Of a stretch of 32,000 nt of DNA, positions 3,985-30,867 are shown piece after piece (position 1 is the first letter of the stretch; every line of letters starts with the position of its first letter). Position numbers and translations under genes: made by a program. The notes under the pieces are model-generated. The model was not told the origin of the DNA. It did no database searches and worked only from the letters and a program-made list of their open reading frames with translations. Source of the stretch: Sulfolobus acidocaldarius DSM 639 (GTDB taxonomy: Archaea; Thermoproteota; Thermoprotei_A; Sulfolobales; Sulfolobaceae); assembly GCF_000012285.1 (NCBI RefSeq), contig NC_007181.1:420001-452000 (forward strand), in the 5' to 3' direction.

Positions 3985-5845
3985 ATGTTAAGTTTAAAGA
4001 AAGTTCAAAAAACTCCCCAGTTAACTACAAAAAAATTGAAGTTCTATCGTTTGGAGCCTGTGCCGTTCTTCCTTCTCTCTGAAGAGGATAGGGATCTAAA
4101 AAAACGAGAACTTGCAATTCTGCTTGCAAATGCAGATGAAGGTTACATTTATATCTCTAGAGAACCAGGCATTTTCGAGTTTGAAGGTTCTAGGTTTAAC
4201 ATAATTACAAACACATACGTGCTAGCAACAAAAAAAAGACCTAAACCTCGAAACTATAGATGAAATTAAAAGACCTAACGTAAAGAAAGAGTATGCAAAA
4301 TATGTTGAAACAAGCGATGGCTTTGCTAGGGTATTGGTTTCATATGCCTTCAGCACCATCATCCCTGAAGGTGCATTAGGTCTTCTTGAGTTAAAGAATA
4401 TTCCTAAACGACTCGAAATAGTCCTGCAGTTTAAGAAGTTAGATGAAATGAAAGTGAGGTCGTATTTAACAACATTAGTACTAAAACAACAAAGGATGAG
4501 TAGGTATGCTTCATCAAGCGTCCAGATCGAGCAAATGGTGGCAACATCTCAGCAACTAAAGAGGGAAATAGATGAGCTTTCAGCAATACCACTTCAGTTT
4601 AGGTTCTTATTTATAGTCCATGCCCACACACAAAATGAACTTGAGGCTATAACAAAAGAGCTAGCACAAAAGGTTCAGCAATTAGGAATTAGAGTTGATA
4701 CTCCCTGCTGTGCTCAGCATGAACTTTACGAGCTTGAGAGTAAAGTAGGATATAGGATAAGCAGCAATATAAGCCTCTCAAAGTTCTATCCATTAGCAGG
4801 GCTTCAAATTTTAGAGCCTAACGGGATCTTCCTAGGAACTGATGAGAAGGGCAACCCCATAGTAATTAATCCTTACTCAGCCGTAAACGGTAGACAGAAC
4901 CCTCATTGGGCAATAACAGGAACGACAGGTGCAGGGAAGACTACTACTGGTGCTGTTCTAATAGATAGGCTGAGGAAACTTAACAACGACATGATAGTAA
5001 TAGTCGTTGACCCAATGGCAAACTACAATCAATTCTTCCAAAATGAGGCTGATTTTAATGTGGTCTTCAAAGATGGTGATAGCCTAGGTTTAGACCCTGT
5101 AAAGTTAGTTTATGATAATGTCGTAAGCTCAGGAAATATCGCTGATTTCGTAATCGAGAATTATGGGATACCTGCAAAACTGAGAGGTATATTAATATCA
5201 CAACTAGAAAGGGCTAAGGACTTGAATGAGTTAATGGACAACTTAGAAGATTTAGCAAAGAGAAAGCATGCTACAGAATACAGGAAGTTAGAAAACTTCC
5301 TCCTCAACCTAGTGAGTGGTGCTGATAAGTATGTGTTTGCTGGGAATCCTGTTGATCTGAAGAATAAGAAGTTTGTAATCCTAGGGCTAAAGACTGATGA
5401 CGCTAGGAAGAGGAGGCTAGCGTCTACCATGTTAATGTTATACGCTTACATAAATAAGCTCCCTAGAGATGTTGAGAAACTTATCTTGGTCGATGAGGCT
5501 CACTTCCTATTTGAGTATCCCTCTATCGCTCAAATTATTGCAATAATCTACAGGACAGCTAGGGCATTGAGGACCAGCATAATCACGATGACCCAGCTCA
5601 TACAACATTACAACATGAACCAATATAGCAGGGAGGCATTCCAGCTAGCTAATAACAAACTTATCCTTAAACAAGAGAAAGAGGCCTTTGATGACCTAAA
5701 GAACTTAATGCGTCTCAGTGACGAGGAAATACAATTCATCATCAAGAGCTCTAGAGGACAAGGGATATTGAGGACTGGGGCGATAACGACTAGGATCCAA
5801 ATACAACTTACTGAGAAAGAGAAAGAGAAATGGAGGACTGAGTAG
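3985..5845 (+). pseudogene. VirB4/TrbE-family conjugative ATPase, split by a +1 frame change inside an A8 homopolymer (4230-4237)
   Basis: Track ORFs 3985-4263 and 4334-5845. The frame of the 503-aa ORF is actually open from 4226 (QQKKDLNLETIDEIKRPNVKKEYAKYVETSDGFARVLVSYAF...). Deleting one A from the A8 run fuses both parts into a ~620-aa protein. Walker A GTTGAGKTT and Walker B LILVDEAHF are present. Confidence 0.75.
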
Positions 5846-6818: not shown

Positions 6819-7622
6819 CTAAGGAAAATTCTGCTTAACCCACTCGGCGTACTTCTTATAGTGTTCTCTCGCTATACCGAATAGCGAGACGTAGTGTCGA
6901 GTCAACACACGCGTAGGTTTTCTACCCTGAATGAAGTCAATAACATCAAAGGGTATGCCTAATGTCGCCATTTGCGTTGATACGAACTTGCGGAAGTACT
7001 TCGGGGGTATTAGGCCTAACTGTTTTACGTATTTATCTACATAAGGCTTCTTTAGCTCCATCCTCATGATTGGCATCACGTGGAAGAGGTAGAATGAGCC
7101 CTTACTCCCTCTAGTCCAATTAAGCTCATAGTAACAGATACCCTCACATACATCCTTAGTGGCGTCATACTCGTTCATCACTCGTAAAACTTCTGCCTCC
7201 CTCAGCCCCGATTCCAAAAGTAAGCGGAAGAAGAGTGAGAGCTTCGCGTTACTGGATACTTTAGCTAATGTATCCTTAATTTGCTCAACTGAGGGGATTC
7301 TCAAATCGGCCCCCGTCTTCTTCACCTTCAGCCCCTCTGGCGGTTCCCGGCCTAGGACTAGCCTGTAGAAGTTGCGCCACGCCTTTACGCAGTTATTCGA
7401 TTCCTTACTCCCTCGCTTAATGCAACTAATATACCTCTTAATTGTATCTTCAGTTAATCCTTTTCTCTTTAGTTCTAATTGAAATTGTATCAGTTTAGAA
7501 TCAGAAAATTCAGAGTTGTTAGAAGACGTAGAATTAAGGTCACTTATTCTAACTCCATTCAATTCTAGACTTGATTCTAGGCTTGGGGGCGTGGGGGGTA
7601 TCCCCCACTGCGGGCCTGTCAA
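6819..7622 (-). CDS. int: SSV-type tyrosine integrase, C-terminal (catalytic) fragment Int(C) created by integration
   Basis: The C-terminus ...[19 protein letters not shown]...[56 protein letters not shown] matches the SSV1 integrase C-terminus as I remember it (YYPLSWTRGYKGVFYVFH...[37 protein letters not shown]). The annotated N-terminus runs into tRNA-like sequence, and the SSV-type N-terminal region is absent. Confidence 0.85.
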   Translation of the reverse strand: [267 protein letters not shown]

Positions 7623-7656
7623 GCCCGTGACCCGGGTTCAAATCCCGGCCGCGGCA
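7610..7656 (+). other. att site: 3' half of a tRNA (anticodon stem to discriminator; loop reads CUGUCAA, GUC, Asp-like), right junction of the integrated element
   Basis: G-CGGGC-CUGUCAA-GCCCG-UGAC-CCGGG-UUCAAAU-CCCGG-CCGCGGC-A. There is no 5' half. It closely resembles the intact tRNA-Asp at 10670-10742 but is not identical. Confidence 0.75.
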
Positions 7657-7731: not shown

Positions 7732-7863
7732 CTATTCGCTTTGAGGCAAAAAATCATTAACCTCGGATTTACTCCAGCATCTAGACCAACAACATGCCCA
7801 GTAAGCTATCTCAATTCTTCCTAAACTTTCCTTAGCCTTCTTATTATATTTCAACAGCTTCAA
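7732..7863 (-). CDS. Cys/Trp-rich small peptide P4 (43 aa from a TTG start), paralog of P3 (17630-17755)
   Basis: My translation: (L/M)KLLKYNKKAKESLGRIEIAYWACCWSRCWSKSEVNDFLPQSE*. It aligns with P3 (L/M)RVLKSNKKTKRSSERIEIACWAGCWFSCW... with many third-position-only differences (RIEIA = aga att gag ata gct versus agg ata gaa ata gcc). The position relative to an ABC-ATPase 3' end is identical. Confidence 0.45.
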   Translation of the reverse strand: MKLLKYNKKAKESLGRIEIAYWACCWSRCWSKSEVNDFLPQSE

Positions 7864-8105
7864 ATAAGCTTCCCTCTATCATCGTATAGACTTTCGGATT
7901 AGTAAAAGCTTCTATAAGCTTCTTATCACGGCTTACTGTATAATTTATCATATCTTCCCTAGTCTCAATCATCATTATTAGTAATTACATTAGTGTTTTT
8001 CAACAGTTTTCCTGTAATTAACTACCGCTTTGTAAGGTGTGGGCATTACCCATATGCATCATCTGGGTTTAGCATAACGAACTTCTTGCTGCCGAATCAT
8101 TTCTG
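7844..8105 (-). pseudogene. Decayed 3' portion of an ABC-transporter ATPase, paralog of 17017-17649
   Basis: The terminal frame reads MMIETREDMINYTVSRDKKLIEAFTNPKVYTMIEGSLFEAVEI*, versus the intact ATPase ...GIIVTHDKDLVKVFSGTPVYTMIEGELFEGIKV*. Upstream pieces sit in other frames (FGSKKFVMLNPDDAYG* ~ FAKPRVCTLDEPLENVD; PYKAVVNYRKTVEKH* ~ PQKREKVIRVIRERVKEG). The N-terminal two-thirds is missing. Confidence 0.6.
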
Positions 8106-11630: not shown

Positions 11631-11930
11631 TTACTGAGATTTTCCTAGTAGTTTCAATATTTCTCTAGCTACTTTTTCTCCCTCCTCCGTAATTACTACT
11701 CTCATTCTTTTTCCACTAGGTGTAGGCATGTAGCTAATTTTCAAGTAGCCAGATTTATGCATAGCCTTCAAATGTTGATATAGCTCAGCCTTGTTAAGTC
11801 TAGTTGATTCTATTAAATCCTTAAACCACGCAGACTTAACGTAATACAATCCAAGTAGAATGCCTAGCCTGACAGAGACGTTAAGAGCCTTGTTGGACTT
11901 TATAAGATCTACCAACTTATCGAGCTCCAT
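11631..11930 (-). CDS. Winged-helix (ArsR/MarR-like) transcriptional regulator, last gene of the RiPP operon
   Basis: 99 aa. An HTH-like segment FKDLIESTRLNKAELYQHLKAMHKSGYL is followed by a wing (PTPSGKRMRVVITEEG). It starts 10 nt after the upstream gene's stop. Confidence 0.7.
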   Translation of the reverse strand: MELDKLVDLIKSNKALNVSVRLGILLGLYYVKSAWFKDLIESTRLNKAELYQHLKAMHKSGYLKISYMPTPSGKRMRVVITEEGEKVAREILKLLGKSQ

Positions 11931-11940
11931 TTAAAGCACC

Positions 11941-12504
11941 TTACTCTTTTATAAGTAAATTATAACATAGTGATACAATCGCCATTCCAAGAGCAGACAA
12001 AGGCATATAGGGTACTAATGCTAAGAGTACTCCTTCGACAAGGTACGAGACGGGCAGAAGCGTGTCTTTTCTCCTTATAGTCTTTAAGATAAACCATAGA
12101 TTAACTGACATAAACACTAAGTATGTCGCTACTAAAAAGAATGTTAAATATGACAGGATAGTAAAGTGCAACGATAGGTAAAATAGTAACAGTAAGACAG
12201 CATATCCGGCCAAGAGGAAAGTTCTAATAAAGATGCGGTCTCTAGCAGACCAAAAGATTTTATCGCTAATGTATGCCTGCCTTAACATTCTATAGGATAA
12301 TGCCAAATAGATACCAGAGAAAAGCAAAAGTAATGTATTTAACAGTAATAGAGGTTCAGTCTTAACTATACTGTATACTATAAAGCCTGATAGGCTAGAT
12401 ATTCCTATAAAATTCAATATTCGTTTACTAGACATATATAAATAATAATAGACAATATTTCTTGCAATATTCAATGATTCCTCTACGTCTATTTCCTTTC
12501 TCAT
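11941..12504 (-). CDS. Polytopic membrane protein (about 5 TM), candidate immunity/export accessory
   Basis: 187-aa hydrophobic ORF. It has an ATGA-type 4-nt overlap with the dehydrogenase gene, implying co-translation. Confidence 0.7.
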   Translation of the reverse strand: MRKEIDVEESLNIARNIVYYYLYMSSKRILNFIGISSLSGFIVYSIVKTEPLLLLNTLLLLFSGIYLALSYRMLRQAYISDKIFWSARDRIFIRTFLLAGYAVLLLLFYLSLHFTILSYLTFFLVATYLVFMSVNLWFILKTIRRKDTLLPVSYLVEGVLLALVPYMPLSALGMAIVSLCYNLLIKE

Positions 12505-13202
12505 TCCTCTCCCACTACCAACATTCCTATAACTACCTCTCCTTTTTCCATTCCTACTCCTATCAGTTTATTAAAGAAATCGTCATTAAAACCTCCAATC
12601 GCAGATATTCCCAAACCTAGTGCAGTAGCTACTAGGTAAAAGTTTTCTATCACTATTCCGGTGTCAATCAGGGAAAATCTGGCTCCTCTATTTCCATATT
12701 TAACCATCGGCTTCCAGTATAAGCTAGTAAGGAGTATTATTAGCGGAACAAAGGTTATGTCAGGCAGTGAGTTCTTTATAGCTTGTAGCATTAGCTCTTC
12801 ATCCAAGTCATTGCTGAGGACGTCTAGGGATCCTTCCACAGGGTCATAGTGATATACACCTTTCTCTAAGTCTGTGTAGAGCGAGATCAAGTACACCTCA
12901 GTTTCTGCCAGATTGCCAGCAGATGGGAACATTCTAAACTGAATTCCGTTTTCTATTTCTTTCACCCCTACAGAATACCATAGTAAGCTGGATATCTTGT
13001 TGAGGTTTATCCTCTCCCTCCTAAATGCCCTACTAGAGTGTCTTCTCTTCATTACCTCTTGGAAACTAACATTGATTTCTATGGGAGTTGGAAGAGGTAT
13101 CTTTTTGACGTTGCCGTATTTCTTCGGTAACGAGTTAGGGAGTAAAGTAAAATTGAATATTTGAGTATCTAGATAAAACCTCTCAAAAGGATTCAAATTC
13201 AC
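12501..13202 (-). CDS. SagB-type FMN-dependent dehydrogenase (azoline oxidase, nitroreductase superfamily)
   Basis: 233 aa. Motifs RRHSSRAF, FPSAGNLAETEVYL and KYGNRGARFSLIDTG (Lys-Tyr motif), plus C-terminal GISAIGGFNDDFF. Sits directly downstream of the YcaO gene. Confidence 0.8.
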   Translation of the reverse strand: MNLNPFERFYLDTQIFNFTLLPNSLPKKYGNVKKIPLPTPIEINVSFQEVMKRRHSSRAFRRERINLNKISSLLWYSVGVKEIENGIQFRMFPSAGNLAETEVYLISLYTDLEKGVYHYDPVEGSLDVLSNDLDEELMLQAIKNSLPDITFVPLIILLTSLYWKPMVKYGNRGARFSLIDTGIVIENFYLVATALGLGISAIGGFNDDFFNKLIGVGMEKGEVVIGMLVVGEE

Positions 13203-13207
13203 ACCAC

Positions 13208-14521
13208 CTACGGAAATGGTACAGGCTCTTCCACAAAGAGTTCTACATTGCTTAGGTTGAACTCTTTCCTGATTGTATAATATCTTTTGTGACCTAAGAA
13301 GGGCAGATTAGGGATATGTGCTGGAGTGAGGTCGGGTACTATGACTCTAACTAGCTTACCCTCCCCTAAGTACTTCTCGATATCAAAATCCTTATAAATT
13401 ATATAGTAGTTTTTTCCTAGAATAATATCAATTAGACTTTTATAGGAAAGATTTTCTTCTCTCTCTAGTTCCTCATAAGTAATGGACTGTAGGCTTCTTA
13501 GGTACTCTACTAAGAAGTTTGTCTTGACAAAGCTGTAATAAAGAGGAACTAGACCAAAATCAGTTAAGTAGTCTGGTTTAAGGTTTCTCGCCATCTTAAT
13601 CTCCTCATCTGTTATCTTGCTAAATGATGATATAGACTGGTATACCTCAAATACTGCCTTTCTTATAGCCTCCTCTAGCGTTATGTCAGCCCCTGCGCCG
13701 GCTACGTAAAGGTCGTTAATGAAACCTAGGCAGCCGACCACGAATAAACCTTTGAACTCGCCCGGAAAAGAAAGGCAAGTTATGTTCCTATCTTCTAGCA
13801 CCTTTAACTTTCGCCTTATCCTCTCGGGCAATCTTATCCTCTTTGGAGGGATTCTAGATATCCAAGAAATGTTTATTGTATCCCTCTCAAGATACTCAAG
13901 TAGACCGTGGATAAAAGCGCTCTCGAAATCCTTATGAAATGCTAGACCCCCAGTCGTAGAGTAAGCTATAAGATCTTCACCAGGCCTTATCAAGTTAAGT
14001 AAATAAGTTATTTGGACGGGTATATATACGTCAGACCCTTTATAGTATTTGGCTCTTGTAAGACTGAGCATAACGTTCTCGTTATAATCTCTAAATATCA
14101 AAAGCTTCTGTAGTTGTTCTGTCGAGAAGAACTTGTAAGTTATTGGAAAGATTTCATACTTAGTCATGAGATCTCCTATTCTACCAAATATTATGCTTTC
14201 GTCGTCGAACAATGTAAAAGCCCCATAAAATCTTTCCAAGAATTCGCCTATTGCTCCTTCTAAACTCTCTTCTTCTGTGAACCCCTTACCTCCGGCTGGT
14301 ACAACATTACTTAGGTATTTTAATAGAGGTAAAACTTGAGGAGGAGTCAGCACTTCTATACTGCTCCTGATCCAACCCTGTCCTATATGAGATTCTAATA
14401 TATTATAATTTACGTAATTAAGCAATCTAGTGATAATAACGTTATCATACTTCTCAGCTACGTAACCGAAAACAGGGCCTATGAACTCGTTTATAAATTC
14501 TTCGAGGCGCACTTCGTGCAC
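13208..14521 (-). CDS. YcaO-family cyclodehydratase (TOMM 'D' protein)
   Basis: 437 aa. GKGFTEEESLEGAIGEFLERFYG matches the YcaO ATP/Mg-binding motif (GKG...S/A..E..ER). The C-terminus ...EEPVPFP* is a PxPxP motif characteristic of azoline-forming YcaOs. Confidence 0.85.
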   Translation of the reverse strand: MHEVRLEEFINEFIGPVFGYVAEKYDNVIITRLLNYVNYNILESHIGQGWIRSSIEVLTPPQVLPLLKYLSNVVPAGGKGFTEEESLEGAIGEFLERFYGAFTLFDDESIIFGRIGDLMTKYEIFPITYKFFSTEQLQKLLIFRDYNENVMLSLTRAKYYKGSDVYIPVQITYLLNLIRPGEDLIAYSTTGGLAFHKDFESAFIHGLLEYLERDTINISWISRIPPKRIRLPERIRRKLKVLEDRNITCLSFPGEFKGLFVVGCLGFINDLYVAGAGADITLEEAIRKAVFEVYQSISSFSKITDEEIKMARNLKPDYLTDFGLVPLYYSFVKTNFLVEYLRSLQSITYEELEREENLSYKSLIDIILGKNYYIIYKDFDIEKYLGEGKLVRVIVPDLTPAHIPNLPFLGHKRYYTIRKEFNLSNVELFVEEPVPFP

Positions 14522-15213
14522 CCTGGTATCTTTAGGGGTGTATTTAGGATCATCTCTCCCTCTTTCACGTCTATATAGATAAGTTTTCCGTTATAATTCC
14601 TAGAATTAAGAAGGAGTTTAATAAACCCCAACAACAGATTTTCAGCACTAACATCTAGATTTGAAGTAGTTTTATAGATAATTTCACCACCTAATTTTAC
14701 GTCCATAATTAGTTTGGAGTTCTTTAACCATACATAAATCTCATATAAGCATGGGGTCTTAGAGTCCATTACGTATACAAAGAACCTATAATAATCCATC
14801 GCATACCCTATCACTACCTTCTCAAACTTTCTACTCTTAAGTAGCGTCACAATTTCATCATTTTCGGATAATAAGTAGCTTATATTACTAGATATAACTG
14901 CTATCTTAGATTTGTCTTTGACTTCTTGAAATGATTTGATGACTCTAAAAGAGAACGGATCTAGGTTCTTAAAATTTAATGAATTTACTTTAAGGTAAAT
15001 TATTTCATCATCACTAAGGATAAGCCTTAATTCCTCCAGTTCGCCTTTTTCTTTCTCATCAATTTCTCCGCTTAAGAATTTAGCCCATTCAGCCTCTTCG
15101 AATTCAACTATCCCAGAAGCTTCTGAAAACAAAACATATTTATTACCGTCTCTAATTGTAACAAAAAACGGAGATATCTTATACGTCCCGGCTCTCTGCA
15201 TAGTCGACATCAC
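14491..15213 (-). CDS. Putative cyclodehydratase partner / precursor-recognition protein (RRE-like N-terminus, short E1-like remainder)
   Basis: 240 aa. The N-terminal FVTIRDGNKYVLFSEASGIVEFEEAEWAKFL resembles PqqD-type RiPP recognition elements. C-terminal PGCTKC. It lies between the precursor gene and ycaO, and its start overlaps the precursor stop (TGATG). The assignment is an inference. Confidence 0.5.
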   Translation of the reverse strand: MMSTMQRAGTYKISPFFVTIRDGNKYVLFSEASGIVEFEEAEWAKFLSGEIDEKEKGELEELRLILSDDEIIYLKVNSLNFKNLDPFSFRVIKSFQEVKDKSKIAVISSNISYLLSENDEIVTLLKSRKFEKVVIGYAMDYYRFFVYVMDSKTPCLYEIYVWLKNSKLIMDVKLGGEIIYKTTSNLDVSAENLLLGFIKLLLNSRNYNGKLIYIDVKEGEMILNTPLKIPGCTKCASKNL

Positions 15214-15341
15214 CCACTAACTCTACCACCACCCCCAAACCAACAACCAAACCAGCAGCCAAACCAACTAAATAACACCCTTCCTTCAGAATATGCCTGG
15301 TATATCAGGTTTGCTCTCCTCACAGTATAATAAGCTCTCAT
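15210..15341 (-). CDS. RiPP precursor peptide P1 (43 aa), not in ORF track
   Basis: Codon-by-codon translation: MRAYYTVRRANLIYQAYSEGRVLFSWFGCWFGCWFGGGGRVSG*. The core is three tandem 12-nt repeats (tggtttggctgc tggtttggttgt tggtttgggggt, 15231-15266). The stop overlaps the next gene's ATG. It is the first gene of the YcaO operon. Confidence 0.75.
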   Translation of the reverse strand: MRAYYTVRRANLIYQAYSEGRVLFSWFGCWFGCWFGGGGRVSG

Positions 15342-15459: not shown

Positions 15460-15576
15460 ATGAAAGTCGAAATAGTACACAGGAAAGGAATTCTAACTAA
15501 GCAAGTCAATTCCTTAGCATGTTGGTTTGGATGCTGGTGTTGCTGTGGAATAAAAAGACCAGACAGTAATATGTAG
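15460..15576 (+). CDS. RiPP precursor-like peptide P2 (38 aa), not in ORF track
   Basis: My translation: MKVEIVHRKGILTKQVNSLACWFGCWCCCGIKRPDSNM*. It shares CWFGCW with P1 (tggtttggatgctgg versus tggtttggctgctgg) and is divergent from P1. Its 3' 63 nt overlap, antisense, the end of ORF 15514-16173. Confidence 0.5.
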   Translation: MKVEIVHRKGILTKQVNSLACWFGCWCCCGIKRPDSNM

Positions 15577-16173
15577 ACCGAACAGCACTATGGCGGTTTC
15601 ACATAAAATTTCGCTAAGAGAACCATTCTCTAGGGAGACCACAAAGTGCCAAAATATGTTTAACGAATCTCGAAAGATGTACGCTAGGATGTAGGGCACA
15701 ACAACCACAAGCGGATAGATCCCCGTTAGGAGCCAGGAATTTAGCCTATACTTAGTTAGTACAGCAGTCACTAGGTTGGAATATGAGGTCATTGACAAAG
15801 AGACGAATGCTGAGACAGCTAGAGTTGAATAGAGGTTAAGTTTGTAGTTCAAGAAATAGAAAATTATCATAGCTAGTACAATATATATTAGAGATGAGAT
15901 AATTCCTGCTAAATGTAAAATGAAAAGATATTTAGTTTTATTTAATTTACCGAACTTATTAAAGAAGATAATCCCAGTAGAATTATACATTAATACATAA
16001 CTCACCCCTGTGCTGATAATGGTTATAATTGTAAAGCAGGAGAAACCAAAGAGGTAGGATGGTATGTAAGCGTAACTTATCAGTCCAAACATGAGACCTC
16101 CTTCAATGATATTGTATAGGGCAGGCCTGCTCACGGTGAGTTGTTTAAGGAGATAAATGAAGATACTTTTCAT
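15514..16173 (-). CDS. Polytopic membrane protein (about 6 TM; ABC-2-permease-like or immunity protein)
   Basis: 219-aa strongly hydrophobic ORF upstream of P1 on the same strand. No catalytic motif recognised. Confidence 0.7.
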   Translation of the reverse strand: MKSIFIYLLKQLTVSRPALYNIIEGGLMFGLISYAYIPSYLFGFSCFTIITIISTGVSYVLMYNSTGIIFFNKFGKLNKTKYLFILHLAGIISSLIYIVLAMIIFYFLNYKLNLYSTLAVSAFVSLSMTSYSNLVTAVLTKYRLNSWLLTGIYPLVVVVPYILAYIFRDSLNIFWHFVVSLENGSLSEILCETAIVLFGLHITVWSFYSTATPASKPTC

Positions 16174-16288: not shown

Positions 16289-17026
16289 ATGGAGCTTGAG
16301 AAGTCGATGATAGTGAAGTTCACAATATCTCCTACAGCATTAATATATATGACAGGCATGATGCTGTTAGACAGTGTAGGACTCTATTTTGCATTAAGCT
16401 CTGTAAAGAACTTGGAAGTAGGAGCAATCTGGTATTCTTCTAGCGTCTTACTGCTCTCAGCGAGCATATCAGCAGGCTTTTCAAACACTCTCATATACCA
16501 GTCCTCGTCATTAGCTTATCTGATAAGATTCAGTAAGCTAAAGTTAATGAGATATGTGATAAGCCTATTACTTGGAGTCTCTGTGTCAGTAGTACTCTTC
16601 TCCCTCCTCTTTGGAGGCATCATAGCACCACTCGTCGCTAAGGTGGCTATTGGGGTAACTCATACCTTTGTATCCCTTAGCAATATAGTTCCCTTTACCA
16701 TTTCAGCTTTGGTAGCTGGATTTTTCATAGTCTCATTAACATTTCTGGTTATAGTTATTCTACTCCTAAAAGTAGGGGCCAGAGCCTCTAATTACGTCTA
16801 CATAATCTTCCTTGCACTATTGGTACTAACCCAACTATCCCCACAGACCTCCTCATTGAACCCTATTTTCTTAGCCGAAGATGCAATAACTCACTCAGTG
16901 ATAAACCAGCACTTCAGCCCATACATCCTAGAGCTTCTGGGATTCTCTTTACTCCTGAGTTTTCTCAGTACTACATTACTCAGGAGGCTAGAGTCTCTTA
17001 GGCTAGAGGAGGTAATTTGGAAGTGA
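16289..17026 (+). CDS. ABC-transporter permease-like membrane protein
   Basis: 245 aa with about 6 TM segments. Its stop overlaps the start of the ABC ATPase gene by 10 nt. Confidence 0.7.
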   Translation: MELEKSMIVKFTISPTALIYMTGMMLLDSVGLYFALSSVKNLEVGAIWYSSSVLLLSASISAGFSNTLIYQSSSLAYLIRFSKLKLMRYVISLLLGVSVSVVLFSLLFGGIIAPLVAKVAIGVTHTFVSLSNIVPFTISALVAGFFIVSLTFLVIVILLLKVGARASNYVYIIFLALLVLTQLSPQTSSLNPIFLAEDAITHSVINQHFSPYILELLGFSLLLSFLSTTLLRRLESLRLEEVIWK

Positions 17027-17649
17027 GTATCACGATAAAGGATTTAGTAGTGTCGCTTAAGGGAACTCGAATACTGAAAGGGATAAATCTTGTAGTAGAA
17101 AATACTGTAGCCCTCTTGTATGGGACTAACGGTTCTGGGAAGACTACGTTAATTAGAGCTATATCTGGTCTTATCCCTTATAGCGGATCAATAAAGATAA
17201 ACGGCAAAGAGGTCAGGAGTGCGAAGAATCTTTTAGAGTACTCCACAAATTTACCAGAAGTTTATTTCATAGGAAACACTGTCCTTGATACTGCGAAGAT
17301 AGTAGCAGAACTAAAGGGCGGTGACTTGAGAGAATTTCTCGAGTTAGTGGAAAGATTCGGCCTGGAAAGTAAGAAAGTTATCAATAAGCCTTTTTACAAG
17401 CTATCAACAGGGGAGAGGTCTTTGGTAACATTATCCCTTGCCCTCTTCGCTAAGCCAAGAGTCTGCACACTCGACGAACCGCTAGAAAATGTAGATCCAC
17501 AAAAGCGGGAAAAGGTAATCAGAGTCATCAGGGAGAGAGTAAAGGAGGGAATAATAGTGACGCATGATAAAGACTTAGTCAAAGTGTTTAGTGGGACACC
17601 AGTATATACAATGATAGAGGGAGAGTTGTTTGAGGGTATTAAAGTCTAA
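17017..17649 (+). CDS. ABC transporter ATP-binding protein
   Basis: Walker A GTNGSGKTTL, signature LSTGERS, Walker B CTLDEPLENVD, and H-loop-like IIVTHD. Confidence 0.85.
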   Translation: MEVSITIKDLVVSLKGTRILKGINLVVENTVALLYGTNGSGKTTLIRAISGLIPYSGSIKINGKEVRSAKNLLEYSTNLPEVYFIGNTVLDTAKIVAELKGGDLREFLELVERFGLESKKVINKPFYKLSTGERSLVTLSLALFAKPRVCTLDEPLENVDPQKREKVIRVIRERVKEGIIVTHDKDLVKVFSGTPVYTMIEGELFEGIKV

Positions 17650-17755
17650 TAAGAAGACAAAGAGAAGTTCAGAGAGGATAGAAATAGCCTGCTGGGCCGG
17701 TTGTTGGTTTAGTTGCTGGACTTCACATGTACGTGATGATTGTGAAACTAAATAG
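17630..17755 (+). CDS. Cys/Trp-rich small peptide P3 (41 aa from a TTG start overlapping the ABC ATPase 3' end by 20 nt)
   Basis: My translation: (L/M)RVLKSNKKTKRSSERIEIACWAGCWFSCWTSHVRDDCETK*. The frame opens only after TAG at 17615-17617, and TTG is the only start candidate. The core DNA gcctgctgggccggttgttggttt resembles the P1 core. It is conserved with P4 at protein level. Confidence 0.55.
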   Translation: MRVLKSNKKTKRSSERIEIACWAGCWFSCWTSHVRDDCETK

Positions 17756-18204
17756 TTTCTTTGGCTCCCAGATAATGTTGCTAAGCACATGTAAATTTGC
17801 TGACTTCCTTTAAGCACAAGGGGCTAATACTTATTATTTATTCACCTAGTCCGCTTGGCCTTCTTCAAACATTCATACTCTCTTTAACCTATGTAGAAGG
17901 TTAGCTTTTCATTCGTCCCCAACAAGTACTGATTACTAGTCCCTTATAATAGAGTACTTAATGTAGTCAGAGTAGCACCTGTAAACATGAATCAGTGTTC
18001 ACTGACTACACGTTGATACGTTTGAAGGCTAACGAGTTAGCTGATAAGTTTGAGGAATCTAAGAAAAACGTCAGCGAAGTTTATAAAAATTTGTAAAATG
18101 ACGTTAGTTAATGTTGTCTACTTTCACTTCAACGATTTTTGATCTCAAATCGAAAGTTGATGAAGAAGACCATAAGCCCATCTCCTTTAAATGTCAATCA
18201 AACT

Positions 18205-19323
18205 TTAGGAGCCTTTGTATAACGCAATTATGAACGCTAGCAATGACAAGATGATAAACAAAACGTACAAATAAAATAACAAGGTCGAACTAATCTGGTA
18301 TAAGTAACCTGAAAATGCCAAGGTAATAGCTGTAGATGAACTTGATATTCCAGAAAGAATCCCAAATTTTACTCCCCTTCCTCCAATTTTAGCCACTTCC
18401 CCAAAAAACAGTACCTCCCATGCTATTGCTGAAAATACTAATAGAGCCATCATTAAAAAGCCGACAATTGTCGTCTTCGTGACCGTGAGTAAGTAGAAAG
18501 AGACCCCCTCAAGGGTGTACGCTGATATCAAGATTTTTCGTGAAGCAATTCTCCCTATTAATGGAGGAACAACTGTGTATAATAAGGTTTGAACCGAATA
18601 GAAAATTCCTAAGGTCGTTTTATCGAAACCAAAGTGTTCAACGCTGTAGATTATCAGTATGTAACTATCAGGTGACGCTACAAGAGAAAACAGACCCAAG
18701 GAGATGGATAAAATTACTAACCTTGTTTGTTTAAGTTGCCTAAGTGCCGAAACTATTCTGCGTTCAGTATTAATGGTTCCTTTCACTTCAACGATTTTCA
18801 ATCTCAATACCGCACTAATTACATTAACGAAAGAGGAGATAAGAAAGGATAAGCCATTACTAACCAAAAAGGAGCCTAAAAATGGCCCTATAATACTTGG
18901 TATTGAGGCTACAGATAAGAATAATCCATATGTTTGGGCTGGCCTTTTAGACTCAGCAATTATTACTCTAGATGCTACCGAAATAAAGGTAGGAATTAAA
19001 CCCAAATTCAGGATTATACAAGCTAGCGAAAAATCTCTTAGGCTATATGTTATTCCAAAGTACAGGCTAAAGTTTAGCGAGGAAGCTACGATAGTAAAGA
19101 AGAAAAGAATTAATCGAATAGAATATTTATCAGCTAAGATTCATGAAAATGGAGACGATACAATTCCCAGTAGTGTTATAATTGAATATATAATTCCTTG
19201 TAGTGTTACGTCTATACCTATTCTCAGGAGGATTAATGGTAGATAAAAAATCCACAGAGAGTTACCAAAGGTCAATAATGAAGTGGATAATCCTAGGTAG
19301 AAAAAATTATCTTTTTTGATCAT
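18205..19323 (-). pseudogene. MFS-type transporter interrupted by one in-frame TGA (19141-19143)
   Basis: Track ORFs 19141-19323 and 18205-19005 are in the same frame. Reading through the stop gives ...GIVSSPFS*ILADKYSIRLILFFF...NLGLIPTFISVAS... (about 372 codons, 10-12 TM). The stop occupies the Gly position of the MFS loop motif G-x-L-A-D-(K/R). Confidence 0.7.
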
Positions 19324-27581: not shown

Positions 27582-29487
<1,906 letters not shown>

Positions 29488-29508
29488 GTCCGTTCCGTCG
29501 ACCATTCA

Positions 29509-30867
29509 TCATTTCAATAATAGATTCTCATATTCCTTTACATATTTTACGCTTCTCTTACTATCACTAAATAATTTTGAGACCTCTTCTATATCTTCAG
29601 ATTTAATACTCTCCCTCCCTTTCCTTTGGGCTACAATGTAAGCCGGTTCTATAAGTTGAACCGCATATCTTAAACTGTTTTCTACTCCTAACTTTGTTAG
29701 TAAGACTATTGCATCTTCATCAAGTTTTACGTCTATCTCGTTAGCCCTAATCTTTACTATTTCTCTTATCTCACTCTCATTGTATGGTCTGGTCTGAATA
29801 ATCAATAATCTATCTAGCAGATCTAACGGAATTCCATGAGGAGATTCTATATCTGTGCCCCTTATCTTTGTTATACCTCTGTTAGTAGCTAGTATTAGGA
29901 TTGGAGCTAGTTCTGACTCCAAGGTCTTCGTCAAGAACGAGAACGCTTCTATATCGAGCATATGAGCATCATCAATGAATAGTACTCCGGGTACCAGTTC
30001 TGCATCTCCTCTGTTTACCATATCTTTAACAAGCCTATCAACTTGCTTTCTTATATCTTGGTTTATCTCTCTCTCAGTGAAAAAGCTAAATAATGCGGTA
30101 ATTGAAATTGATTGCGCAGCTAGATTAAGATCTAAATCATGAAGAGTTACTGTAATAGTTATATCCTTTTCCTTCTTAATAGAGCCTGTAGGAATATCAA
30201 CTTGTCTAACAACTTCAATATCATAGCTCTTTGCACCTTCAAACCCCTTGGCTCTTCCTACCTTTGTAACTTCACCGGTTTCAGCATCTATCCATATTAC
30301 ATCACCTTTCTTTACATTCAATTTCATGAACTGTTCAGCAATTGCATCACCAACATTTAAGGTTCGTTCATCGTCCTTAGTACTTAAAACGATCTGTGCT
30401 TCTCTCGGAGAAACGTAATATGGATTGTACCTACTTCTGGCTACCTTAAGTTTGACGTCCTTAACTACACCTTCATAGACTGTTCTTTTCTGCTTTATCC
30501 TAACTCCCATTGACTTTCTAATAACTTGCGTTAGTATCTCAGTTTTCTTGAGCTCTGTAGAATAAACCTCAGAGGCATTTATAGTGGTAAATGGGGTATC
30601 CTCTCCTAGCTCTTTTGCAATGGCTACAGCCAATGCTGTCTTTCCTGTTCCTGGTGGACCTACGAAAAGTATTCCCTTACCTGCCATTTTACCTTGTCTA
30701 ATTAACTGAACCACTATACCAGATGCCTCTCTGGCTTCAACTTGTCCTACTAGACCATCTGCAATGAACTTTGCTTTACCCTTCTCGTCTAAACCTAAAC
30801 CAGTTATATGACTGTGTATACTTGCTTTTTCCCTTTCTATTTTCTTAATCTCTCTTATCTGGGCCAT
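29509..30867 (-). CDS. TIP49/RuvB-like AAA+ ATPase
   Basis: [11 protein letters not shown]...[29 protein letters not shown] (Walker A), an inserted OB-like domain, and [11 protein letters not shown] (Walker B). The overall TIP49 architecture is found in Crenarchaeota. Confidence 0.8.

What the first reader, a model, noticed from the sequence alone, without database searches (positions are those of the whole stretch)
17615..17755. Third family member (P3): a TTG-initiated peptide gene nested in the 3' end of the ABC ATPase gene
In the +1 frame relative to the ATPase, the frame opens after TAG 17615-17617. From TTG 17630 it encodes (M)RVLKSNKKTKRSSERIEIACWAGCWFSCWTSHVRDDCETK*. It overlaps the last 20 nt of the ATPase ORF. 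The core again has the (A)CW-x-G-CW pattern. The same arrangement recurs at 7732-7863 (P4): same TTG register inside the codons ...L-F-E.. of an ATPase tail. Many differences between the copies are synonymous (RIEIA: agg ata gaa ata gcc versus aga att gag ata gct; NKK identical). That pattern argues for selection on the peptide reading frame and not for chance. The 80-aa track ORF 17575-17817 on the minus strand is just its antisense shadow.
Basis: partly seen in the sequence, partly recalled or inferred. Interest (0 to 1): 0.75.

Follow-up and report, generated by a model that had tools for sequence, protein, structure and literature searches.

The report
Unannotated third thiazole-peptide precursor gene
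A 41-codon TTG-started gene overlapping the end of an ABC-transporter ATPase gene in Sulfolobus acidocaldarius is real and conserved, missed by almost all annotation, and most likely encodes an extra Cys/Trp-rich precursor for the neighbouring YcaO (thiazole-forming) peptide pathway.

Summary
TTG 17630 to TAG 17755 (+) is open, lies +1 to the ABC ATPase gene (17017-17649) and overlaps its last 20 nt. The window is Sulfolobus acidocaldarius. The locus is the 'thermoacidophisin' TOMM cluster of Cox et al. 2015 (SagD-type YcaO, SagB dehydrogenase), for which only one precursor (P2) was published.

The same ORF sits at the same overlap in Saccharolobus islandicus, Stygiolobus caldivivus, Stygiolobus spp. 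and hot-spring metagenomes. It has the same TTG register and a near-invariant core IACW[AV]GCWFSCW[TA][ST].
- Of 13 variable sites in the 14 core codons, 11 are third positions.
- pN/pS is 0.12, as low as in the ATPase gene.
- The antisense frame of the 80-aa ORF scores equally low. In orthologs, however, it is closed by a stop and has no start, so only the sense ORF is conserved.
- All five YcaO-bearing loci keep P3 intact.
- Profile comparison links P3 to P1 (leader and core) and to P2 (core only).

Caveats: "nested" overstates a 20-nt overlap. P4's "ATPase" is a 43-codon remnant. Two metagenome copies are frameshifted. Some loci without YcaO still carry P3. Translation and modification are untested.

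Verdict: a real gene and a new member of a known kind, of moderate interest.

The parts
17630..17755 (+). P3 ORF: TTG start, 41 codons plus TAG; (M)RVLKSNKKTKRSSERIEIACWAGCWFSCWTSHVRDDCETK
   Evidence: Orthologous ORFs in the same position in L001, L002, L020-24, L025-32, L035 and L041.
17630..17649 (+). 20-nt overlap of the P3 start region with the last codons and stop of the ABC ATPase gene (+1 frame)
   Evidence: The overlap is 20 nt in W, L001 and L020, and 23 nt in L023 and L025.
17617..17625 (+). Purine-rich Shine-Dalgarno-like tract GAGGGAGAG, 5-13 nt upstream of the TTG. Orthologs have GGTGA(G/A) at the same place (inferred signal).
   Evidence: Sequence. The role is inferred, not tested.
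17630..17683 (+). Basic leader region (18 codons) with the N-terminal motif M-[KR]-[VLI]-[IL]-K-x-N-[RK]-K, shared with the P1 family
17684..17725 (+). Core IACWAGCWFSCWTS: three Cys, each followed by Trp. Near-invariant across genera.
   Evidence: (variable sites at codon positions 1/2/3 = 1/1/11)
17726..17755 (+). Variable C-terminal tail HVRDDCETK plus stop. Orthologs have (S/R/H)(E/Q)VKK(P/S).
17017..17649 (+). ABC transporter ATPase gene (NCBI start GTG 17023). Short form that lacks the ~50-aa C-terminal extension of more distant relatives.
16289..17026 (+). ABC permease-like membrane protein, overlapping the ATPase start
7732..7863 (-). P4: diverged paralogue of P3, TTG start; (M)KLLKYNKKAKESLGRIEIAYWACCWSRCWSKSEVNDFLPQSE
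7844..7975 (-). 43-codon remnant of an ABC ATPase 3' end, overlapping the P4 start in the same register. Only the ~30 nt before the TTG are well conserved with the P3 locus.
15460..15576 (+). P1: unannotated paralogous precursor-like gene; MKVEIVHRKGILTKQVNSLACWFGCWCCCGIKRPDSNM
15210..15341 (-). P2: the published thermoacidophisin precursor (Q4JBA1), directly upstream of the C-D-B operon
14491..15213 (-). 240-aa protein in the position of the TOMM C protein (no family hit)
13208..14521 (-). YcaO cyclodehydratase, SagD family (TIGR03604, 273.8 bits against a cutoff of 219)
12501..13202 (-). SagB-family FMN dehydrogenase (TIGR03605, 175 bits against a cutoff of 78)
11941..12504 (-). u187: polytopic membrane protein. 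In other genera it directly follows P3.
11631..11930 (-). HTH_34 winged-helix regulator. In other genera it is the last gene of the perm-ATPase-P3-u187-HTH operon.
17575..17817 (-). 80-aa antisense ORF: not conserved as an ORF, a shadow of P3

Best explanation
P3 is a genuine small protein-coding gene of Sulfolobus acidocaldarius that annotation has missed. It is the third gene of the exporter operon (permease - ATPase - P3). Its TTG start lies 20 nt inside the ATPase gene, behind a purine-rich SD-like tract. It is therefore probably translated from the polycistronic mRNA by coupling or re-initiation as ribosomes finish the ATPase.

The product has an 18-20-residue basic leader followed by a 14-residue core with three Cys-Trp pairs. 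It is a paralogue of P1 and shares its core register with P2, the published precursor.

The most likely role is an additional precursor (A) peptide of the thermoacidophisin TOMM pathway. In that scheme the C protein and the SagD-type YcaO cyclodehydrate the core cysteines, the SagB dehydrogenase oxidises them to thiazoles, and the product leaves through the ABC transporter it is co-expressed with.

Shown here: the ORF, its conservation, purifying selection in the sense ORF, paralogy to P1 and P2, and linkage to the cluster.

Inferred: translation from the TTG, the coupling mechanism, modification by YcaO, and export.
For: 1. Organism and cluster. The ATPase is 100% identical to an S. acidocaldarius protein. 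YcaO matches TIGR03604 and the dehydrogenase matches TIGR03605, both above cutoff. Cox et al. 2015 (PMC4603692) named the class and listed only P2 as precursor.

2. Conservation. A positionally identical ORF with the same TTG register is present in:
- S. islandicus (L020-22);
- Stygiolobus caldivivus (L023/24);
- Stygiolobus and other Sulfolobaceae genomes (L001, L002);
- metagenome contigs L025-L032, L035 and L041.
ATPase identity to these is only 55-60%.

3. Coding signature. Core variable sites at codon positions 1/2/3 are 1/1/11. Summed pN/pS is 0.12 in the P3 frame, against 0.9-2.5 in the other sense frames. This is equal to or lower than the ATPase gene at the same pS.

4. Strand. The antisense frame is closed by a stop and lacks a start in all orthologs.

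5. Motif. There are 4 CW..CW peptides in the window against 0.023 expected by chance. hhalign gives P3 vs P1 93.9% (E 1.5e-7, leader and core) and P3 vs P2 95.2% (E 2.7e-8, core only).

6. Phyletic pattern. All five loci that carry YcaO (W, L020, L023, L027, L041) have an intact P3. The most decayed locus, Acidianus copahuensis L003, has no YcaO, a truncated B gene and no P3.

7. Not a membrane protein. The maximum Kyte-Doolittle score over 15 residues is about 1.0-1.3, too low and too short for a transmembrane helix.

8. Gene caller. One gene caller picked the same TTG start independently on one ENA contig (P0122/L035).
Against: - There is no evidence of transcription, translation or modification.
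- dN/dS alone cannot tell the sense frame from one antisense frame. The strand call rests on ORF integrity and on motif homology.
- Three loci without YcaO in the available flank (L002, L029, L031) still carry an intact P3. P3 is therefore tied more tightly to the perm-ATPase-u187-HTH module than to the biosynthetic genes. These losses do look recent, since their P3 regions are identical to YcaO-bearing loci such as L027.
- Two metagenome copies (L033, L034) have 2-nt and 1-nt deletions in the leader.
- The S. acidocaldarius leader and tail differ substantially from the other genera: pN/pS of W against the others is 0.36-0.69.
- The hhalign scores rest on short Cys/Trp-rich segments and may be inflated by composition.
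Confidence: 0.7

Rival explanations
1. P3 is a real, translated small protein, but it is not a YcaO substrate. It works with the perm-ATPase-u187-HTH module, for example as an immunity or transport accessory peptide, or as an exported signal sensed through the u187 membrane protein and the HTH regulator.
For: - In all genera except S. acidocaldarius, P3 lies between the ATPase and u187-HTH in one co-directional gene string.
- It stays intact in loci that have lost B, C, D and P2 (L002, L029, L031).
- Its leader is unusually short and basic (net charge +4 to +7).
Against: - More distant versions of the same module (P0023, P0025, P0026 loci) run perm-ATPase-~200 aa-HTH_34 with no P3 and no YcaO. 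The module therefore does not need P3.
- P3 appears only in the subfamily linked to the TOMM genes.
- Its core is in register with the cores of P1 and P2.
- The hydrophobic stretch is too short and too weak for a membrane helix.
- P3 is absent or frameshifted only in loci without biosynthetic genes or of unknown context (L003, L033, L034).
Confidence: 0.17
2. P3 is a functional gene in other Sulfolobaceae but a decaying relic in S. acidocaldarius. There the u187-HTH genes have moved away and the leader and tail have diverged.
For: - W against orthologs gives pN/pS of 0.36-0.69 over the non-overlapping part.
- The tail is replaced (HVRDDCETK against xEVKKx) and the downstream genes are rearranged.
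Against: - The TTG, the open frame and 13 of 14 core residues are intact in W, despite saturated synonymous divergence (pS 0.46-0.79).
- The ATPase itself shows a similar W-against-others ratio of 0.34-0.39.
- A second copy (P4) also keeps the frame, the TTG and three Cys.
Confidence: 0.07
3. The conservation reflects a non-coding element (RNA structure, terminator, or promoter of the downstream gene) or the antisense 80-aa ORF, and the sense ORF is incidental.
For: - The antisense frame that shares third positions has pN/pS of 0.13.
- A T-rich stretch follows the stop.
Against: - The antisense frame has a stop 17 nt before the core and no upstream start in every orthologue, and internal stops in the P4 locus.
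- The RNAalifold consensus is weak: -12.9 kcal/mol over 161 columns, covariation term -1.18, mostly G-U pairs.
- There is no Rfam hit.
- Variation concentrates at third codon positions, and leader indels are multiples of 3 in 12 of 14 sequences.
- The peptide motif recurs in P1 and P2 at unrelated DNA positions.
Confidence: 0.03
4. P3 is not initiated at the TTG. It is appended to the ATPase by programmed +1 frameshifting in the 20-nt overlap, replacing the C-terminal extension seen in longer relatives.
For: - P3 is in the +1 frame.
- Distant ATPase relatives are about 50 aa longer.
Against: - No conserved slippery or stop-stimulated motif is seen in the overlap. W has GTC TAA TAA, the others have AAA ATG TAA.
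- In L023 a TAG directly precedes the TTG, which restricts any shift to 7 codons.
- P4 keeps the arrangement behind a 43-codon remnant that cannot be an ATPase.
- No similarity to the long-form extension is found in any frame.
Confidence: 0.03

Closest known systems
Thermoacidophisin TOMM precursor P2 of S. acidocaldarius (Q4JBA1; Cox et al. 2015, PMC4603692, Table S2)
   Same: Same cluster and similar length (43 aa). The Cys/Trp-rich core is in the same register: SWFGCWFGCWF against ACWAGCWFSCW (hhalign prob 95.2%).
   Different: - P2 has an ATG start, is annotated, and sits directly upstream of the C-D-B biosynthetic operon.
- P3 is TTG-started, unannotated, and sits in the exporter operon overlapping the ATPase stop.
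- The leaders are unrelated, and P3 has three CW pairs and no Gly-rich tail.
P1 family (window 15460-15576 and orthologues), itself unannotated
   Same: Paralogue. It shares the leader motif (M-K/R-V-I-x-x-N-R/K-K) and the CW-x-G-CW core (hhalign prob 93.9%, E 1.5e-7 over 30 columns).
   Different: P1 ends in CCC, stands alone convergent to a membrane-protein gene, and starts with ATG.
Thermoanaerobacter mathranii thermoacidophisin-type precursor MKGGENMKIIKKIEDQKDFNASALSPGGWCCSCCCWCWVNIFN (Cox et al. 2015, Table S2)
   Same: A Cys/Trp-rich C-terminal core, and an MKIIKK leader start resembling the MK(V/I)IKCN of P3 (by eye, not tested statistically).
   Different: It is bacterial and has a longer leader. 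No positional information was checked here.
Multi-precursor TOMM/LAP and other RiPP clusters (for example streptolysin S SagA, plantazolicin, heterocycloanthracins, prochlorosins). From general knowledge, not tested here.
   Same: One set of modifying enzymes with several short precursor genes. Precursors are frequently missed by gene callers.
   Different: Their precursor genes usually stand free next to the enzymes. P3 is welded to the 3' end of the exporter ATPase gene and travels with the exporter/regulator module even where the enzymes are lost.
comS inside srfAB of Bacillus subtilis (an out-of-frame small peptide gene within a large gene). From general knowledge.
   Same: A small peptide gene read in another frame of a larger gene of the same operon.
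   Different: comS is fully internal. P3 overlaps by only 20 nt, so it is an ordinary if long terminal operon overlap and not a nested gene.

Membership tests
TOMM / linear azol(in)e peptide precursor (thermoacidophisin class) | Short ORF encoded within the gene cluster of a SagD-type YcaO cyclodehydratase and a SagB dehydrogenase | tested here: met
   P3 lies 3.1 kb from YcaO (13208-14521). TIGR03604 scores 273.8 bits and TIGR03605 scores 175.2 bits, both above cutoff.
TOMM / linear azol(in)e peptide precursor (thermoacidophisin class) | C-terminal core rich in heterocyclisable residues (Cys/Ser/Thr) | tested here: met
   The core IACWAGCWFSCWTS has 3 Cys and 3 Ser/Thr in 14 residues. All three Cys are invariant in the orthologues.
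TOMM / linear azol(in)e peptide precursor (thermoacidophisin class) | Sequence relationship to an accepted precursor of the class | tested here: met
   hhalign of the P3 family against the P2 family gives prob 95.2%, E 2.7e-8 over 17 core columns. The segment is short and compositionally biased, so this is supportive and not decisive. No NCBIfam precursor model matches.
TOMM / linear azol(in)e peptide precursor (thermoacidophisin class) | Co-occurrence with the biosynthetic genes across genomes | tested here: inconclusive
   - 5 of 5 YcaO-bearing loci have an intact P3.
- L003, without YcaO, lacks P3.
- L002, L029 and L031 lack YcaO in the flank yet keep P3.
- L033 and L034 are frameshifted.
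- Genome-wide absence of YcaO was not checked.
TOMM / linear azol(in)e peptide precursor (thermoacidophisin class) | Leader bound by the C protein / recognition element, and a leader cleavage site | not testable with these tools
   Only a weak shared [NYH]-[RK]-[RK]-[ASGT] motif 12-21 residues before the first core Cys was noted by eye in P1, P2 and P3.
TOMM / linear azol(in)e peptide precursor (thermoacidophisin class) | Observed azoline/azole formation on the peptide | not testable with these tools
   This needs mass spectrometry or in vitro reconstitution.
Protein-coding gene under selection | ORF with conserved start and stop in orthologous positions of diverged genomes | tested here: met
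   12 of 14 distinct sequences, counting P4, have the TTG and an open frame. The TTG is the only canonical start in W, and in L023 it is the first codon after a stop.
Protein-coding gene under selection | Excess of synonymous over non-synonymous change, specific to the frame | tested here: met
   pN/pS is 0.12 in the P3 frame, against 0.9-2.5 in the other sense frames and 2.3-2.5 in two antisense frames. One antisense frame ties at 0.13 but is not an ORF in the orthologues. This is comparable to the ATPase gene.
Protein-coding gene under selection | Direct evidence of translation | not testable with these tools
   No expression data were available. The exact sequence is absent from a 15-billion protein collection.
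Nested (fully internal) overlapping gene | The small ORF lies wholly or mostly inside the host gene | tested here: not met
   Only 17630-17649 (20 of 126 nt) overlap the ATPase ORF.

The most novel reading that the evidence does not exclude
P3 is not, or not only, an antibiotic precursor. It is a peptide signal or regulator that belongs to the exporter/sensor module (perm-ATPase-P3-u187 membrane protein-HTH regulator). It would be exported by the transporter it is translationally coupled to, and sensed through u187/HTH to autoregulate export or immunity and, where present, the YcaO pathway. That would be a peptide-based autoinduction circuit in Crenarchaeota, and would explain why P3 persists in loci that have lost the biosynthetic genes.
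Probability: 0.1. Interest if true: 0.8.

Novelty: new member of a known kind. Interest (0 to 1): 0.45.

Why it matters
The thermoacidophisin cluster is one of the very few candidate RiPP pathways in Crenarchaeota, and it has never been characterised. Only one precursor has been published for it. This analysis gives three precursor families (P2, plus the unannotated paralogues P1 and P3).

- It changes what products to look for by mass spectrometry or heterologous expression.
- S. acidocaldarius is genetically tractable, so the predictions are directly testable.
- It is a clean example of a conserved, selected small gene that almost every annotation pipeline misses. The gene has a TTG start, 41 codons and a 20-nt overlap. 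One call was found among 5.8 billion protein clusters.
- In S. islandicus the region is covered by a probably over-extended neighbouring gene call.
- P3 is linked to the exporter/regulator module, and that module is kept when the enzymes are lost. This bears on how immunity and production genes are partitioned in archaeal populations.

Tried and rejected
1. dN/dS as the sole test. The antisense frame with coincident third positions scores the same (0.13 against 0.12), so ORF integrity had to decide the strand.

2. P3 as an overprinted relic of the ~50-aa C-terminal extension of longer ATPase relatives. An HMM of that extension was searched against all three frames of the P3 regions of 8 loci. 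The best score was 1.4 bits, so there is no signal.

3. Conserved RNA structure. The RNAalifold consensus is weak and there is no Rfam hit.

4. Mobile-element origin. No relative was found in viral contigs. In plasmids there was only a chance-level hit (E 0.06).

5. Known precursor models. NCBIfam gave only a sub-threshold hit of P3 to TIGR04118 (15 bits against a cutoff of 35) and nothing for P1, P2 or P4.

6. Internal archaeal promoter. A TATA-like hexamer (TATATA, TTTATA or TCTATA) sits at -27..-22 from the TTG in W, P4 and most orthologues. It is TTTACA in L023 and L025, and it is encoded by the conserved V-Y-T of the ATPase, so it is not convincing.

7. Programmed +1 frameshift. No conserved slippery motif was found.

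8. The genome-contig scan with the ATPase alignment returned only 3 relevant loci among 19. The other 16 were unrelated bacterial ABC ATPases.

9. Literature. 'Thermoacidophisin' occurs only in Cox et al. 2015, and no later work on this cluster was found in the searchable library.
Full report
**What is in the window.** The 32-kb window has 37.6% G+C. Its ABC ATPase is 100% identical to a Sulfolobus acidocaldarius protein.

Bases 11.6-17.8 kb hold a thiazole/oxazole-modified peptide (TOMM) cluster. On the minus strand are:
- an HTH_34 regulator (11631-11930);
- a polytopic membrane protein, u187 (11941-12504);
- a SagB-family dehydrogenase (12501-13202; TIGR03605, 175 bits);
- a SagD-family YcaO (13208-14521; TIGR03604, 274 bits);
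- a 240-aa protein in the C-protein position (14491-15213);
- the short ORF P2 (15210-15341).

On the plus strand are P1 (15460-15576), a permease-like protein (16289-17026) and an ABC ATPase (17017-17649). A further membrane protein (15514-16173) lies on the minus strand between P1 and the permease.

Cox et al. 2015 (PMC4603692) called this cluster type 'thermoacidophisin'. Their Table S2 lists only P2 (MRAYYTV...GCWFGCWFGGGGRVSG) as the precursor for S. acidocaldarius. No later paper using that name, or treating this cluster, turned up in the searchable library.

**Check of the observation.** The frame opens after TAG 17615-17617. TTG 17630 is the first and only ATG/GTG/TTG before the core. 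The ORF runs to TAG 17753-17755 and reads (M)RVLKSNKKTKRSSERIEIACWAGCWFSCWTSHVRDDCETK. The ATPase stop is at 17647-17649, so the overlap is 20 nt and P3 is in the +1 frame.

A 41-codon open frame is unremarkable in this A+T-rich DNA. The motif is not. CW-x(1-4)-CW occurs four times in the six-frame translation (P1, P2, P3, P4), against 0.023 expected from 300 dinucleotide-preserving shuffles. The triple form occurs twice against none expected.

P4 (7732-7863, minus strand) has the TTG in the same register, and the quoted codon differences are correct. Two details need correcting:
- Only 20 of 126 nt lie inside the ATPase gene, so P3 overlaps it and is not nested in it.
- The 'ATPase tail' beside P4 is a 43-codon remnant ORF (7844-7975), preceded by unrelated sequence and a DUF234 ATPase gene.

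**Related loci.** ATPase homologues of 55-60% identity exist in Saccharolobus islandicus, Stygiolobus caldivivus, Stygiolobus spp., a Sulfolobus MAG, Acidianus copahuensis and hot-spring metagenomes. I fetched their loci through the ATPase, through the peptide itself and through YcaO.

A P3-like ORF lies at the same place in every one except A. copahuensis. It has a 20-23-nt overlap with the ATPase stop and the same TTG, and reads for example (M)KVIKCNRKARGRKDVYIACWVGCWFSCWTSSEVKKS in S. islandicus. In S. caldivivus a TAG directly precedes the TTG, so the TTG is the first codon of the open frame there.

In these genera the gene order is permease - ATPase - P3 - u187 homologue - HTH, with C-D-B and P2 divergent upstream. 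In S. acidocaldarius, u187 and HTH have moved behind the dehydrogenase.

**Is it coding, and on which strand?** Across S. acidocaldarius and nine distinct orthologues, the 14 core codons have variable sites at codon positions 1/2/3 of 1/1/11. Nei-Gojobori counts on the part that does not overlap the ATPase, summed over four independent non-acidocaldarius lineages, give:
- pS 0.61, pN 0.074 and pN/pS 0.12 in the P3 frame;
- pN/pS of 0.88 and 2.5 in the other two sense frames.

The neighbouring ATPase gene gives 0.14-0.20 at the same synonymous divergence, so P3 is at least as constrained as a bona fide protein.

One control mattered. The antisense frame that shares third codon positions with P3 is exactly the frame of the 80-aa ORF 17575-17817, and it gives 0.13. 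dN/dS therefore cannot choose the strand. ORF integrity does:
- In all orthologues that antisense frame has a stop 17 nt before the core and no start codon upstream of it.
- In the P4 locus it has internal stops.
- Only S. acidocaldarius has a long antisense ORF.

A conserved RNA structure is not supported (RNAalifold -12.9 kcal/mol over 161 columns, covariation term -1.18; no Rfam hit).

The sense ORF is not universal. Two metagenome contigs (L033, L034) carry 2-nt and 1-nt deletions in the purine run of the leader, which put the core out of frame with the TTG. They could be real null alleles or assembly errors. L032, from the same sample as L034, is intact.

**Relationship to P1, P2 and P4.** Profile-profile comparison of the P3 family with the P1 family aligns 30 columns spanning leader and core (prob 93.9%, E 1.5e-7). 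Comparison with the P2 family aligns 17 core columns in register (prob 95.2%, E 2.7e-8). These are short and compositionally biased, so I treat them as supportive only. P3 is best described as a paralogue of P1 that shares the core type of the published precursor P2.

For P4 against P3:
- The peptide part is 70-75% identical at the DNA level with pN/pS 0.35-0.44.
- The ATPase-tail remnant is 53% identical with pN/pS 0.72, except for the ~30 nt just upstream of the TTG, which stay similar.

That pattern suggests P4 has been kept, or is decaying more slowly, together with the short upstream stretch needed to express it. The P3/P4 pair alone would not have proved coding, because another frame scores similarly. 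P4 has Tyr for the first Cys and Cys for the Gly, so it keeps three Cys. No P4-like sequence was found elsewhere.

**Annotation status.** The exact P3, P4, P1 and orthologous P3 sequences, with several start choices, are absent from a collection of about 15 billion proteins, whereas P2 is present. A profile search of 5.8 billion clusters found a single P3-like protein. It was called on one ENA contig with the same TTG start and a 23-nt overlap. In S. islandicus the next gene is annotated 241 aa long and runs across P3, although homology to u187 begins about 125 nt further on.

**What it most likely does.** The cluster enzymes are a canonical azole-forming set. P3 has a short basic leader and a core with three Cys, each followed by Trp. 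It belongs to the same peptide family as the neighbouring precursor-type ORFs.

The phyletic pattern points the same way:
- All five loci that carry YcaO keep an intact P3: S. acidocaldarius, S. islandicus, S. caldivivus, and metagenome contigs L027 and L041.
- The most eroded locus, A. copahuensis, has no YcaO, a truncated dehydrogenase and no P3.

The hydrophobic stretch is too short and too weak for a membrane helix. I therefore favour an additional TOMM precursor, translated by coupling from the exporter operon behind an SD-like tract. That tract is GAGGGAGAG in S. acidocaldarius and GGTGAG in the other genera. Translation, modification and export are inferred, not shown.

**What does not fit neatly.** P3 is tied to the exporter/regulator module more tightly than to the enzymes. 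L002, L029 and L031 have no YcaO, C, B or P2 in 4.7-10 kb of upstream flank, yet keep an intact P3.

These losses look recent. L029 is identical to the YcaO-bearing L027 over the 280-nt P3 region that was compared. L033, frameshifted, shares a flanking second ABC ATPase hit with the YcaO-less L002. Even so, the pattern keeps alive the reading that P3 serves the transporter/u187/HTH module, for instance as an exported signal.

Against that reading, more distant relatives of the module (ATPases of 253-261 aa) run permease - ATPase - ~200-aa protein - HTH_34 with neither P3 nor YcaO. The module therefore works without P3, and P3 appears only in the TOMM-linked subfamily. I found no trace that P3 arose by overprinting the lost C-terminal extension of those longer ATPases.

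**Verdict.** P3 is a real, conserved, almost universally unannotated small gene. It is most probably a third precursor family of a predicted but uncharacterised archaeal TOMM pathway. That makes it a new member of a known kind: useful and testable in a tractable organism, but not surprising in principle.

Noticed in passing
window 15460-15576 (+): P1 (MKVEIVHRKGILTKQVNSLACWFGCWCCCGIKRPDSNM) is also missing from the 15-billion protein collection and from the published precursor table. It is conserved in S. islandicus and in metagenome loci (L020 9051-9158, L025 459-572, L027 3841-3954, L041 7375-7488). Its 3' end overlaps, antisense, the 3' end of the membrane-protein ORF 15514-16173.
   Followed up: partly
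window 7588-7656 (+) and 6819-7622 (-): A tRNA-like element (Rfam 36.8 bits; not called by ARAGORN; resembles the 3' part of tRNA-Asp, by eye) is overlapped by the start of an archaeal phage integrase ORF (PF16795, E 1e-47). A HerA/TraG-like ATPase gene lies at 4334-5845. This looks like the border of an integrated SSV/pNOB8-type element with a split integrase. P4 lies 76 nt from it.
   Followed up: partly
L033 568-663; L034 952-1038: Two metagenome copies of P3 carry 2-nt and 1-nt deletions in the GGGGAAAAGATG purine run of the leader. This separates the TTG from the otherwise intact core. They may be real null alleles or assembly errors.
   Followed up: partly
L002, L029, L031 compared with L027, L020, L023, L041: The biosynthetic half of the cluster (B, C, D, P2 and the 219-aa membrane protein) is present or absent between near-identical loci, while permease-ATPase-P3-u187-HTH is kept. 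This looks like producer versus immunity-only polymorphism. In L002 the permease reading frame is also split into two ORFs.
   Followed up: partly
L020 10657-11382 (S. islandicus CP002425.1): The gene annotated after the ATPase (241 aa) overlaps the P3 ORF (10614-10727) in another frame. Similarity to u187 homologues starts only at about 10783, so its N-terminus is probably over-extended.
   Followed up: partly
L036-L040 (distant relatives): A wider, YcaO-free operon family (permease - 253-261-aa ABC ATPase - ~200-aa protein - HTH_34 regulator) exists in other thermoacidophile contigs. The P3-bearing subfamily has lost the ~50-aa C-terminal extension of the ATPase.
   Followed up: partly
L043 164-292 (+): A more distant YcaO cluster (39% identity) has a P2-type precursor, MKIVEKAKNSKNALEITSEISDLGRVASWLGCWVGCWALGET. 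The SW-x-GCW-x-GCW core therefore extends beyond the close Sulfolobaceae set.
   Followed up: no
window 29462-29515 (-): C/D box sRNA sR5 (Rfam RF01304, 43 bits, just above the gathering score).
   Followed up: no
window 18205-19005 (-): The 266-aa ORF matches only part of the MFS_1 profile (positions 112-308 of 347). Related clusters carry 553-573-aa MFS genes (L023 6540-8201, L041 2093-3814). It may be a truncated MFS gene next to the rearranged P3 3' flank.
   Followed up: no
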